Of a stretch of 60,478 nucleotides of DNA, positions 19,761 through 55,557 are shown one piece after another. The notes under the pieces are model-generated. The model saw nothing but the letters and a program-made list of their open reading frames with translations, made no database searches and was not told the origin of the DNA. Source of the stretch: Spongospora subterranea f. sp. subterranea (taxonomy: Eukaryota); NCBI GenBank assembly GCA_049724395.1, contig JAUGWO010000141.1, positions 62,001-122,478 on the forward strand, given 5' to 3'. The position numbers and the translations under genes were made by a program. Each line of letters opens with the position of its first letter. Position 1 is the stretch's first letter.

Positions 19761-21176
19761 ATGCCTGCCTCCAACTTCCCTTTACAACAAATGCGGCGCG
19801 CGCAGTCCACATGGGCAATTGATGACTCTGACGATTTCGATTTAACTCCTCACAATCACACTGATCACGAAATTGATTCATCGGGATACCCACTGTCACC
19901 TGATGGAGATTGTCTATACCGGTTTGAAAAATTAAGGACATGCCCAATCTACTTAATCGCTATTCCCGGTGGCAGTTACAGAGCACAAGGTCTCTCCAGA
20001 TTGGCAAGGGCGTGCGTTTTGTTGCAAAAAGATGTGTCGGGGTTCTTTTTTGTTCTCTGCCGACCTCTGCTTGTCGTGTCTCAGCGTTAAGGCCGAAGCA
20101 GAACGACCCTAATGATTTCAACATCAGGTATTTTTCTGGTCTTTCTTTTTCATAATGCTGAACTAATCGATAGTTGTCGGAACGGCTGTGGTGAAACTAT
20201 TATCCGGCAGGAATGCTTGCCAATGACGGGCGAGCCCCTGACACTTCTAAGGAATTAGTTGGCCCGGACAATATAGTAAAAGCTAAATTAGGTCGCCCTA
20301 AAGGAAGTCGTAACATTGATAGAAATGCACTGACTACGTATTAAAGCTATGGCCATGACAATAATACGTGCTACATCACGTCTTTATTGGAATGTTTATT
20401 TCTTGTTTCAAGGTTTGCTCTGTACGTAGATTGCTCGTTGAATCTGTTTTTTATTCTCCCACAGAAACGGTGGATATCCTGAACAGTTTTGTTGCCGTTA
20501 CAAAACCGAATGAAAGGGCAAATACAGCGGTCGTTGCGAAGGTGTGCAAAGAGACGTTCATTACTTGTTCCAATTGCCTACAGACGGGCCACACCAGGAG
20601 ATGAAAATCTTGTCCTAAAACTTATAAAATAATTTCAACAACTTGCAAACGAAAATAATCTGAATCGACGGACGAAGAAGTCGACTGCGATATCAGCCCT
20701 TTCATCAAGTTTTGAAAAACGGCATAGAACCGTCCAGAGTGTCCAGCCTTCTGCAGAGTTTGCCCGATATTTGATTAACTTGTCTAAGCGTTTCAATTTT
20801 CTCGAGTGCCACTTGGACGAGTTGAAGCCTGGACGAGTCTTCGCTAAAGCTGTCACCTCTTAGGGTCTTTTACACTGTCCTAAACCCCAAGCTGCCACCT
20901 CTTAAACCCGTAACCCCAACAACCCATAAACCTGCCAACCTCGTTAAACCTTGGGGGTCCACAAACGAGCCAAAGTCGTATTGCTGAACTACGACCTCCA
21001 CCAGTCATTTGTATGGCGGGGCCTCTGATTTAATTCGAATAATTGAATCCAGTCTTTTGAACGTCATGACTGGTGATTTGAATCCAGTCTTTTCTGTAGG
21101 ACAGAAAAGACTGGATTCAAAGACTGGCACGCACTTTTTGATCCAGCTTTTTGATCCAGTCTTTTCTAGTGGCCCT
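19761..21176 (+). mobile_element. GCM-domain Mutator-like element 1, internally deleted
   Basis: DGDCLYRF...WQLQST...KRCVGVLFC...LRPKQ (GCM-like); NDGRAPDT, LGRPKGSRNIDR and DNNTCYITSLLE match element 2; CSNCLQTGH knuckle; right end with repeated CCAGTCTTTT motifs (21045-21176). Confidence 0.75.
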
Positions 21177-21183
21177 CTCTATA

Positions 21184-52620: not shown

Positions 52621-52889
52621 TCAAAGAGAGCGGAATTAGGAGGCGCTGCAAAAGGTGCAACACCAGCACATCACATTGCTGGATTATCCGAAGAGAAAGC
52701 ACCAAAAAGCTGATCTCTCACAACACGACGAACACCGGACAGGTCATCGTCGTGGTGGGTAGGCTTCTCTCCGCTCTTCGATAAACCCGTATTTTTGATA
52801 GAATTGGCAGGCGCGTCCCATACTTGACAATGTCGAGAGAGTGAGCGTGGAGAAGCCTTTTGCGCGACACACAGGTCATCGTCGTGATC

Positions 52890-55557
52890 CAAAATTTGGC
52901 AGCGCGCCAAAATGTATTGCAACTATAGGGATCAAGGATCACCGACAGAGAAACGACTAAAATCCACTTGCAGTTGGTATGTCAATCTGACATTCGATCG
53001 AAAGGCAGGGGACTATGTCATCAATCACAGATGCATGGATCACAACCACATCATCAATAATGCGTTGATCACGCCAGTTGGAGGCTTACATCAAATTAAT
53101 CTTTTATAGAACTTGAAAACGGAAGAGCGTGAGATGATTCACCTGCTATCGCGATACAATTTGCCACTAAGCAAGGTTTCAAATATATATCCTCGCCAAT
53201 ACCCTTGGCGCCGCTGAATGCGGTGTTTTTTAGATTCGAGAAATGCTGGAGGGTTCGAACCCTGGCCGGACATATTCAACGTCACTTTTATCGCGACAAG
53301 TTCGTAGCGGGAAGGAATTGCACTTTGGCAACGACCCGCACTGCATGACAAGGTTCATGGAGGCAGGATACGCTGTCCGAGAAAATGGTGGCTTGTTTTG
53401 CTACTCTATGGACATGTCGCAACGCCTCTCGACAATATCACTGCAGGTGCGAACGCTTCACCATGGGTTTTGCTTCATCTCATTTTTTTTGTAGACTGCC
53501 CAGATGTCGCTTTATGCCAAGGCGTATGCAGACTTTACCATAGTCTACGGAACCCATAACACGACAACTTACGATCTGAAATTGATGCCTTTTACCAATG
53601 TGGACTGTCTAGGTAAAGTATTTCAAAAAATTGATTCCATTTACCAATGTGGACTATCTAGGTAAAAATGTTGTCTCTGGGGTTTTGTTAGACGAGTCCG
53701 AGAATTCATTGACAATATCGGAAGCTTTAGCTCAATTTCATCTTGAGAAACCCTATGCCACCCTGATGACAGATGGAGGGTCAGCGTACCCGGCAGTTGC
53801 ACACAATGCTCAGATGACTCACATTCTATGTTCGTATCATTTTTAAAAAGATGTGTTCGCATCTTGCGGTGGCATGGGTCCTGTTGCGGATTGTTTCAAA
53901 GAGGATACAATGGCTCTTATCTACACAGCGTTTGAATTAGCAGATTTTGAAAAGCATGTTAATATGTGCTTGAACAAGTTTGCGGTGCATTCAGCTGCAG
54001 TCGAATGTATCAATAAGATTGTCAAATTCAAGGAAAAAGTTTGCAGGACATTCACTGGTAATTATGAGTTACTTTGAGTGAACAAATTTGCTAACCTTTT
54101 GTAGGTCGCATTTTTACCTGTAATCACGTGGCAACCCAGCGTGGAGAGAGTGTTAATTCGTCTATTAAAGAGAAAGGAGTCAAGAAGAAAGAACTTCGCG
54201 GGTTCAATTTGTTGCAACTGTGGGAGCACCTTTTGAATCAGTTCAACAGAATGGAGGCGAGTTCGTTAGATGTATTATGTGATCTTATCAGAAACTCAAG
54301 AAAGTGGAGTACGTACGTTGAACACATGTGGCAAGACAGTTACCAAGAAGCTGCAAAGCTTCCATTTGTGGGTTTGATGCCCGACACGAATGATCTATGG
54401 TATGCGTCATCGTCACCTGATCAAAGTCTTTGTCACGTCATCGATCTGTCCCTCGATGGGCCTGCACAGGTTCCCACATGCTCGTGTCAAGATTTCTCGT
54501 CGAGTTTAATTCCCTGCGCTGGAATATGTGCTGCGCTTTGCCGTTTGCCAGGAAGGCAGCTCTTTCATGTGTCCAATTTGCATCCTCGCTGGAGAATTAG
54601 CTCTCACCCTCTGTTTGACAAAGCTCTGGCAAAATTAAATCTAAGATCGGTTGCCACTCTCGAATCCCCTGATCTCCATCAAACTGGTATTCCGTGTAGT
54701 GCACAGCATCACCTCATTATGACAGCATACCAGAGCATAATGCTACACCAACGAAGCGGGATCTTCGGTACACGAAGCTCAACAATCTCTTCAAAACCAT
54801 CGAGCCAATCGCAATTAGCAATGATCACTACTACAAATTGTTGACGCTGAATCTGCTGGCGTTTAAGCAAAGTCTTCATGGGGAAGGGAGCAGTGAATTT
54901 ATCCTGCCAGAACCTGAAGCGAACAACACAGACAAGCCTTTGCAAGTCCCAGTTCTGCCACCAAGAAAAAGAGGGGGTGGCGACGATGTAAACAGGTCAT
55001 TGTTGTCGTCTCGCAAGAGGTTGTGTTCAGCGTGCATCAAAGCCGGTTTGATGCCGACCGATAATCACAGAGCTAGGGCCTAGGAGTTCCAAGTGTCCGT
55101 CTTTAAACGCTCAGATACCGACGGTCGAATAAATTTTTTTATAATCCATCTGTTATCAACGCACACTCTTATTGCTTCTGAAACCGCCAGTAGATTCAAA
55201 GTCAACAACCTATAAAATGGTCATTGCGATCAGTTCGATTGTTTTGAAAAGGTCATTGATCTTCGTGTAGCTCTTTCGTTTGGTTGGTGCATTATGCTCC
55301 CGTATGAATTGTTTTTCAAAGCGACGAAAGTATGACGATGCAATTGACAAGTTCGATACATTTAGTAAAACTTTAACGCCATTGCCATCGTATTTTTGTA
55401 GCTGAGTGGGCCAGAATCTGATACAGAATTGACTTCGCTGAAGAACCTATTACCTTTGTTGGGTCTGTGTATATTACTAAGTTAAACCACTGGGGCACTT
55501 ATTTTTGAGTGAACTGTCCACGCGTGGATAGTCCACGCGTGGACAAAAGACACTTCC
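52890..55557 (+). mobile_element. MULE element 2 (paralog of element 1), 5' truncated
   Basis: YCNY...STCSW...DHNH, MTDGGSAYP, ILCSYHF, TQRGESVN, SWIM PTCSCQDFSSSLIPCAGI, CSAC; probable right terminus with tandem GTCCACGCGTGGA palindromes ending CACTTCC. Confidence 0.85.

What the first reader, a model, noticed from the sequence alone, without database searches (positions are those of the whole stretch)
20460..55440. DNA transposons of different families share a built-in compressed antisense copy of their own transposase
Seen: in at least six element copies (two GCM-MULEs, two DD39D mariners, MULE-2, MULE-3) the DNA right after the transposase stop is a convergent, diverged, deletion-riddled copy of that family's transposase, ~100-300 bp long, with patches in the original order. 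Where a terminus survives, the copy lies inside it. Established: inverted transposon duplications (e.g. maize Mu killer) make hairpin RNA that silences a family in trans. Inference: here the inverted copy looks like a standing part of element anatomy, i.e. a cis-encoded hairpin/antisense cassette for self-limitation, for silencing sister families, or for a mini-repressor peptide. Neutral alternative: elements arose as fold-back dimers and one arm decayed. I do not know of this being described as a general feature.
Basis: partly seen in the sequence, partly recalled or inferred. Interest (0 to 1): 0.88.

Follow-up and report, generated by a model that had tools for sequence, protein, structure and literature searches.

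The report
Transposons carrying their own antisense arm
Several unrelated jumping genes in what is likely the potato powdery-scab protist carry, just after the stop codon, a short, worn, back-to-front copy of part of their own transposase gene, so their RNA is predicted to fold into a hairpin that would let the host's RNA-silencing enzymes damp them.

Summary
The inverted copies are real. Six elements (a DD39D mariner, two 'GCM'-type elements, three MULEs) have a 70-150 bp inverted, 56-78% identical copy of part of their transposase gene, starting within about 80 bp of the stop. Four beat 200/200 shuffles. One MULE is detectable mainly as protein; another depends on an inferred gene tail. The arm is inherited: a second mariner copy and a likely transcribed Spongospora record share its inner part.

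Three claims need trimming. Most arms show one significant patch, not an ordered series. The one clearly 'compressed', in-frame copy (32790-33046) lies outside its neighbour's terminal repeat. The arm is not family-wide: 2 of 46 related mariners and 0 of 1 related MULE from other organisms have one.

Arms copy different gene parts, so they arose independently, likely as fold-back or end-repair scars. They are predicted to form imperfect hairpins. A related host has Argonaute and a Drosha-like enzyme but no RdRP, and its dsRNA source is unknown. I found no sign of selection on pairing, and no genome or reads were available. Self-damping (0.42) narrowly beats neutral scars (0.38). The scan's earlier notes hold nothing similar.

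The parts
7500..9990 (+). MULE1: MULE/SWIM transposase gene (decayed), sister family of MULE2
   Evidence: Pfam ZSWIM1-3_RNaseH-like above cut-off, MULE below cut-off; tblastn to P0121
9979..10095 (-). MULE1 arm: inverted copy of its own N-terminal coding region 7506-7622 (67/119 nt, 35% aa)
   Evidence: 0/150 shuffles vs family HMM; DNA score 52 is at noise level
16575..17095 (+). mar2: internally deleted mariner of the mar1 family; 17058-17095 is the surviving inner piece of the same arm (30/38 nt), then a 39-bp tandem array
19700..20632 (+). GCM_A: decayed transposase-like gene related to GCM_B
   Evidence: tblastx to GCM_B; no Pfam hit
20682..20753 (-). GCM_A arm: inverted copy of 20462-20533
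   Evidence: z 8.6, 0/200 shuffles; alignment
21028..21175 (.). Probable 3' terminus of GCM_A (inverted-similar to the GCM_B 5' terminus at 23727-23897)
   Evidence: score 68, 0/100 shuffles
21182..21208 (.). mar1 3' TIR (TA outside)
21209..21394 (+). mar1 arm; core 21309-21376 is an inverted copy of CDS 21576-21643; 57 codons open in the homologous frame
   Evidence: z 11, 0/200; outer part borderline (5-11 of 252 tiles at gap costs 12 and 16, 33 of 252 at 20)
21399..22750 (-). mar1 DD39D-type mariner transposase (frameshifted); 5' TIR at 22972-22998
   Evidence: 681 homologues, best 72%; Pfam
23727..27266 (+). GCM_B: 5' terminus and multi-exon transposase-like gene ending in Cys-box/His-box-like motifs (labels recalled)
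   Evidence: no Pfam match above cut-off
27335..27431 (-). GCM_B arm: inverted copy of 27003-27095; no 3' terminus found
   Evidence: z 19.8, 0/200
27781..28094 (.). Young (95%) inverted duplicate of 28344-28601, carrying a second X/Y pair (Y to 28094)
28345..28440 (+). Y': arm convergent on segment X
28518..28692 (-). X: 59-codon open stretch, probable decayed C-terminal tail of MULE_E (inferred)
28727..30040 (-). MULE_E: third MULE/SWIM transposase (decayed, 5' truncated)
32757..33046 (+). Compressed in-frame mariner copy (HTH, HSNA, WF and PR-D-S-RN patches in order), convergent on mar3 but outside mar3's TIR; the ORF continues to 33197
33047..33070 (.). mar3 3' TIR with TA
33090..33480 (-). 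mar3: C-terminal half of a second mariner transposase (decayed)
52888..55132 (+). MULE2 transposase (5' truncated, decayed), 94% to Spongospora record P0121
55172..55306 (-). MULE2 arm: inverted copy of 54726-54870, frameshifted relative to the protein; inner ~45 nt also present in P0121
   Evidence: z 25.5, 0/200
55516..55550 (.). Palindromic motif near the probable MULE2 3' terminus, similar in L081
   Evidence: 4/100 shuffles; weak

Best explanation
Several DNA-transposon lineages in this genome carry a short, diverged, inverted piece of their transposase gene just past the stop codon, which likely began as a fold-back or end-repair scar and is predicted to fold read-through RNA into an imperfect hairpin that the host's Drosha-like enzyme would cut, damping the element. 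SHOWN: the arms exist; they start within about 80 bp of the stop; they lie inside the terminus where one survives (except beside mar3); two are shared with a second copy; they copy different gene parts, so they have at least six separate origins; and most relatives elsewhere lack them. INFERRED: each arose when an element end was rebuilt from an inverted copy of itself or a close sister (gap repair primed at the opposite end, or deletion within a tail-to-tail pair). Only junctions past the stop leave the transposase intact; the arm was then trimmed and diverged. PREDICTED: stems of about 50-110 pairs in the sense transcript. UNTESTED: cleavage in cis by the RNase III enzyme and loading of 21-nt RNAs on Argonaute. 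In a host group without RdRP this would be a self-supplied dsRNA source, and moderate self-restraint would explain why arm-bearing variants founded so many lineages here.
For: - Arms significant against shuffles, with the same convergent geometry in mariner, MULE and GCM-type elements.
- mar2 shares the mar1 arm.
- P0121 lacks the window's introns, is a named Spongospora record, and ends in the arm sequence. The Spongospora data of PMC4471660 are a transcriptome (passages), so read-through into the arm is inferred.
- Predicted arm-arm duplexes of -53 to -135 kcal/mol; 36-112 arm-arm pairs in local MFE folds of five arms.
- Frequent here (6, plus mar2's remnant, of 14 DNA-transposon-like 3' flanks examined) against 2 of 46 mariners and 0 of 1 MULE from other organisms.
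- A young 87% tail-to-tail mariner pair exists in L058, showing a possible starting state. End-replacement rearrangements are described in PMC4161770 and PMC4678618 (passages).
- Plasmodiophora has two AGOs, a Drosha-like enzyme that cuts dsRNA, no RdRP or Dicer, TE-derived sRNAs and an unknown siRNA precursor source (PMC13547706). Spongospora has argonautes and one double-RNase III gene (PMC4471660).
Against: - No bias toward G:U-compatible changes for the sense transcript: 49 against 68 for the opposite strand, p=0.10 (eight alignments, including L041 and L066).
- The longest perfect run is 10 bp, 15 with G:U, so arm-derived small RNAs would match the own mRNA poorly.
- Both strands fold about equally well, and the fold z-scores are not independent of how the arms were found.
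- Pooled third-position to first/second-position divergence is 2.0 (95% 1.5-2.9), what a neutral arm beside a constrained gene would give. Only mar1 (4.9) and MULE2 (5.5) exceed it.
- Between mar1 and mar2 the arm is not better conserved than the CDS (8/38 vs 9/78 differences, p=0.26).
- All window copies are decayed, this is one 60-kb window, and absence of RdRP was reported for Plasmodiophora, not tested for Spongospora.
- No reads or genome were available.
Confidence: 0.42

Rival explanations
1. Neutral or eroding scars. Same origin (fold-back, end repair, or collapse of a tail-to-tail pair), but the arms are only tolerated. Perfect arms would be unstable or suicidal, so survivors are the trimmed and diverged ones; synonymous drift of the CDS and deletions in the arm may even be escape from self-silencing.
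For: No G:U bias; no perfect run above 10 bp; pooled d3/d12 of 2.0; arm not better conserved than CDS; independent origins from different gene parts; absence in L081 and in 44 of 46 mariners; L058 as an intermediate; known end-replacement mariners.
Against: Needs an unusually high formation rate or a survival filter to reach about half of the DNA-transposon ends in one window. Arms of similar short length and position recur across unrelated families. Among nearby direct-orientation matches I recognised only one DNA-transposase fragment (27736-27781).
Confidence: 0.38
2. Chance nested or adjacent insertions of related elements, later deleted, with no lineage-level inheritance.
For: The compressed copy at 32757-33046 is outside mar3's TIR. 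No 3' terminus was found for GCM_B. The region is a transposon graveyard. High d3/d12 in mar1 and MULE2 fits a sister-family donor.
Against: Arm inside the TIRs of mar1 with no own TIR or TSD; shared by mar2 and by P0121; always convergent and next to the stop.
Confidence: 0.11
3. The arms are, or were, translated antisense mini-genes making a transposase-derived repressor peptide, driven from the 3' terminus.
For: The copy beside mar3 keeps several deletions in one frame with 0 stops in 100 codons. The homologous frame is the longest open one in mar1 (57), MULE2 (76), GCM_A (74) and MULE1 (52). Third-position excess in mar1 and MULE2.
Against: The MULE2 and GCM_B arms are frameshifted within the patch. 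By my reading of the alignment, the deletions beside mar3 remove the middle helix of the HTH. In-frame cases are the only ones a protein-level search can see. No Pfam hit.
Confidence: 0.07

Closest known systems
Maize Mu killer (PMC3440606; search listing and start of abstract only) and Ac/Ds composite-insertion killers (bioRxiv 10.1101/2020.01.07.897926; abstract and outline)
   Same: Inverted duplication of transposase sequence, read through into a hairpin, giving siRNA (there shown, here predicted).
   Different: Those are single, recently formed, non-autonomous loci with long arms (about 4 kb hairpin for Muk) acting in trans. Here the arms are 70-150 bp, 56-78% identical, sit inside elements that keep a full-length gene, recur in unrelated families and are shared between copies.
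End-replacement mariners with long TIRs: Dromar7/11/28/36 (PMC4161770) and Rpmar17/49 (PMC4678618); passages read
   Same: [quoted passage not shown]
   Different: Those are short, non-autonomous lineages whose inverted arms run to the termini. Here the gene is not truncated, the true TIR is short, and the arm is an internal, diverged fragment.
MuDR mudrA/mudrB convergent two-gene layout (recalled; no call)
   Same: A second, convergent unit inside the 3' end of a MULE.
   Different: mudrB is a functional gene unrelated to the transposase; these arms are transposase-derived and mostly frameshifted.
MITE-derived and TIR snap-back hairpins feeding miRNA/siRNA pathways (search listings; Tc1 snap-back recalled)
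   Same: Element-encoded fold-back RNA as a silencing trigger.
   Different: There the stem is TIR with TIR; here it is coding sequence with an internal 3' arm.

Membership tests
Killer-type hairpin loci (Mu killer, Ac killers) | Inverted duplication of transposon sequence | tested here: met
   but short and only 56-78% identical
Killer-type hairpin loci (Mu killer, Ac killers) | One transcript runs through both arms | tested here: inconclusive
   P0121, inferred to be transcript-derived, covers the CDS and the inner ~45 nt of the MULE2 arm; no reads
Killer-type hairpin loci (Mu killer, Ac killers) | Single non-autonomous derivative locus acting in trans | tested here: not met
   Arm lies within elements with a full-length gene and is shared between copies
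Killer-type hairpin loci (Mu killer, Ac killers) | siRNA production and heritable silencing | not testable with these tools
End-replacement long-TIR mariners | Inverted arm continuous with the terminus (long TIR) | tested here: not met
   mar1 ends match for 27 bp only; MULE1 ends do not match
End-replacement long-TIR mariners | Transposase truncated by the rearrangement | tested here: not met
   mar1, MULE1 and MULE2 genes reach their C-terminus before the arm
DD39D (plant-type) mariner, for mar1 | Transposase homology, CTCCCTCC-type TIR, TA target | tested here: met
   681 homologues, best 72%; TIR pair, TA on the left, right target degenerate. The DD39D label is recalled.
MULE (FAR1/SWIM type), for MULE1, MULE2, MULE_E | MULE/RNase H-like DDE domain with SWIM finger | tested here: met
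   ZSWIM1-3_RNaseH-like above cut-off and MULE below cut-off in MULE1; 687 relatives of P0121
MULE (FAR1/SWIM type), for MULE1, MULE2, MULE_E | Long TIRs and 8-11 bp target duplication | tested here: inconclusive
   5' ends truncated or unmatched; only a palindromic 3' motif seen
'GCM-MULE', for GCM_A and GCM_B | GCM domain and MULE catalytic domain | tested here: inconclusive
   No Pfam hit above cut-off on the exon-sized pieces scanned; the spliced protein was not scanned
Structured RNA families | Rfam match | tested here: not met
   0 matches at gathering score in the whole window

The most novel reading that the evidence does not exclude
In plasmodiophorids, which silence RNA with a Drosha-like enzyme and no RdRP, unrelated DNA transposons have repeatedly and convergently acquired and kept a built-in antisense arm as a self-limiting hairpin. 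These arms are a main source of the unexplained dsRNA in this lineage, and in the extreme case compress most of a transposase gene into a ~300-bp ordered digest that can also target sister families.
Probability: 0.25. Interest if true: 0.88.

Novelty: new variant of a known kind. Interest (0 to 1): 0.66.

Why it matters
Inverted transposon duplications are known as rare killer loci or as non-autonomous rearrangements. Finding them as recurrent, inherited parts of gene-bearing elements from three unrelated groups in one genome was not described in what I searched (paper searches; the library lacks most subscription journals). If functional, it is a case of transposons supplying their own silencing trigger. 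It would also give a directly testable answer to a question stated as open in PMC13547706: where siRNA precursors come from in a lineage with no RdRP or Dicer. If neutral, it still points to an unusual end-repair process in this genome.

Tried and rejected
- No whole genome is held, no sequencing runs were obtained, and the protein atlas did not answer. Copy number, strand of transcription and small RNAs stay open.
- A tuberin-like ORF gave no homologues. The host was inferred from P0121 instead.
- Viral collection: no relatives for three queries. The prokaryote-genome collection gave one MULE contig, L081, with no arm.
- The single metagenome scan went to mariners, so the many metagenomic MULE2 relatives have no DNA context. 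The best 80 of 346 loci were kept; 46 had enough 3' flank for; several are near-duplicates. L010 was rejected (inverted p=0.007, same-strand p=0.01). L041 and L066 share a record-name prefix and may not be independent; they are significant as DNA against their own CDS but not in the profile chain tests.
- A frameshift-tolerant chain aligner overfitted (copy beside mar3 p=0.10). The single-frame version was chosen after seeing that path, and gap cost 20 is only borderline.
- Eye-catching extra patches (MULE2 outer arm; flank of the mariner stub at about 31960) did not beat nulls.
- My first pooled codon-position ratio (4.8, three selected arms) fell to 2.0 with all six arms; the latter is the one to use.
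- The Fisher enrichment values printed used loose denominators and are not relied on.
- The tile scan also gave hits of 50-60 with no transposase link (6.7/8.7 kb, 11.8-12.8 kb, 18.9-19.3 kb, 35.6-36.2 kb, 46/49 kb).
- Supplements of the cited papers were not read; the small-RNA locus tables of PMC13547706 may bear on the hairpin claim.
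Full report
CONTEXT. The window is a eukaryotic transposon graveyard. The MULE at 52.9-55.1 kb is 94% identical to a named Spongospora subterranea protein, P0121, so the host is inferred to be this plasmodiophorid or a very close relative. 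No genome was held and no reads were obtained. Everything rests on the window, 81 fetched loci and fetched proteins.

THE OBSERVATION. Of 17 gene/3'-flank pairs, four gave inverted local alignments above all 200 dinucleotide shuffles: GCM_A, mar1, GCM_B and MULE2 (z 8.6-25.5). An unbiased tile scan (null 99th percentile 48, n=272) recovered these four at 62-126 and added the X/Y pair near 28 kb. It also gave several unrelated hits at 50-60. X is a 59-codon open stretch 35 bp past the apparent stop of MULE_E and is probably its decayed tail, which would make Y its arm (inferred). Identities are 56-78% over 68-149 columns. By my reading of the frames, all six arms begin within about 80 bp of the stop. 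Five pair with the last few hundred bases of the gene; MULE1 pairs with its start. No arm was found for MULE3, PIF1, the OrsD-type element, two unclassified elements, a mariner stub, two gypsy ORFs or two control ORFs.

'COMPRESSED, ORDERED PATCHES'. Parts of the arms flanking the main patch gave no significant further patch in MULE2, GCM_B or MULE1, and borderline ones in mar1, GCM_A and X/Y. One case is clear. The stop-free ORF 32757-33197, convergent on mar3, matches a mariner profile as an ordered, single-frame series of short patches from the HTH to beyond the first catalytic motif. It scored 82 against a maximum of 52 in the 3' flanks of 45 other mariners, 0/248 window tiles at gap costs 12 and 16, and 0/300 residue shuffles at costs 12-16. 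Each half is significant alone in the same frame (2/400). The order test is marginal (14/300). But mar3's own TIR with TA lies at 33047-33070, so this copy is outside the terminus. It may be a separate deleted element or the arm of an older one into which mar3 inserted. In mar1 the arm is between stop and TIR. In GCM_A, and probably MULE2, it is inside the surviving end.

INHERITANCE AND SPREAD. mar2, a second copy of the mar1 family, keeps 30/38 nt of the arm before a tandem array takes over. P0121 lacks the window's introns, differs from the window copy, and its C-terminus reads into the inner ~45 nt of the MULE2 arm. The Spongospora data of PMC4471660 are a transcriptome (passages), so the arm is inferred to be in a second, transcribed copy. 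The arm is not family-wide. L081, a full MULE2-family element from another organism with a similar terminal motif, has none. Of 46 related mariners with enough flank, two have a significant inverted patch inside the TIR, both pairing with the HTH region (L041 p=9e-5, L066 p=2e-4); one is ambiguous; L058 is a complete 87% tail-to-tail pair. Sister elements MULE1 and MULE2 copy different gene parts, so the arms arose independently.

WHAT THE DIVERGENCE SAYS. Mismatches between arm and gene are enriched at third codon positions (77/210 against 87/413; p=5e-5), pooled distance ratio 2.0 (1.5-2.9). That is what a neutral arm beside a constrained gene predicts. mar1 (4.9) and MULE2 (5.5) are higher, suggesting a sister-lineage donor or synonymous escape. 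There is no excess of G:U-compatible changes for the sense strand (49 vs 68), and no perfect run above 10 bp. The arm is not better conserved than the CDS between mar1 and mar2, on few sites. Predicted duplexes are stable (-53 to -135 kcal/mol) and dominate local folds on either strand, which follows from the complementarity and is not separate evidence.

MECHANISM. Origin (inferred): rebuilding of an element end from an inverted template, or collapse of a tail-to-tail pair, with survival only when the junction spares the gene. Comparable end replacements are described for non-autonomous mariners (PMC4161770, PMC4678618; passages), and alternative transposition makes silencing inverted duplications in maize (bioRxiv 10.1101/2020.01.07.897926; abstract). 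Consequence (predicted): read-through RNA forms an imperfect stem. Plasmodiophora has two AGOs and a Drosha-like enzyme that cuts dsRNA by itself, lacks RdRP and Dicer, makes 21-nt RNAs partly from transposons, and the precursor source is stated to be unknown (PMC13547706; abstract, passages and Discussion). Spongospora has argonautes and one double-RNase III gene (PMC4471660). Cleavage of the stem would destroy the transposase message in cis without needing perfect guide matching. I rank this self-damping reading at 0.42, chiefly for the recurrence, the geometry and the host fit. Neutral or eroding scars get 0.38 because no selection signature was found, nested insertion 0.11, and a mini-peptide 0.07.

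NOVELTY. Paper searches on this anatomy and host and passages of a 2026 review (PMC13269885) showed no description of recurrent internal antisense arms in gene-bearing DNA transposons. The library is incomplete and supplements were not read. Four look-ups in the scan's earlier notes gave only unrelated bacterial MITE reports or nothing. It works like a killer hairpin if the untested steps hold, but it fails membership of both killer loci and long-TIR rearranged mariners on tested features. Verdict: real, unusual, a new variant of a known kind; function undecided; interest 0.66.

Noticed in passing
window 2900-7181 (-): Multi-intron host gene with a DUF3384 hit, tuberin/TSC2-like by recall; the homologue search found nothing.
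   Followed up: partly
window 17097-18087: 39-bp tandem array that begins exactly where mar2's arm breaks off; its unit shares an 11-bp match with the mariner CDS region the arm copies, so it may have grown out of the arm.
   Followed up: partly
window 16295-16564 and 58086-60478: Same 56-bp satellite at two places; the long array starts inside the MULE3 gene, from which the unit may derive.
   Followed up: no
window 13019-13920, 18165-18960, 55615-56797: Three related small genes with an N-terminal alanine-rich or coiled-coil segment and a shared C-terminal domain; no Pfam hit on the two scanned; resemblance to crinkler-type families is recall only.
   Followed up: no
window 26128-27266: GCM_B transposase-like gene ends in Cys-box and His-box-like motifs, as in ubiquitin-specific proteases (recalled; Pfam negative). 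GCM_A shares the Cys box; a stub at 27736-27781 shares the His-box region.
   Followed up: partly
window 27781-28601: Young 258-bp inverted duplication (95%) enclosing a ~110-bp repeat also found at 30415-30541: a near-perfect hairpin built from an older imperfect one.
   Followed up: partly
window 36463-44628: Two chromodomain gypsy elements, one nested, with 99.5% identical 220-bp repeats at 36463 and 42308.
   Followed up: no
window 45928-49923 (-): GC-rich (57-69%) LINE-like endonuclease/RT element in a 45% GC window, next to an RNase H fragment that is also inserted in the Harbinger at 23577-23726.
   Followed up: no
window 50579-52784: OrsD (PF12013) zinc-finger gene directly replacing the 5' end of MULE2.
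   Followed up: no
window 11400-12780: AT-rich (about 30% GC) island with degenerate ORFs on both strands, unlike the rest of the window.
   Followed up: no
L058 2125-4600: Tail-to-tail pair of mariner genes, 87% identical, 100 bp apart with no TIR seen between them.
   Followed up: partly
L081 1-2842: Intron-containing eukaryotic MULE inside a bacterial genome bin, probably a contaminant contig.
   Followed up: partly
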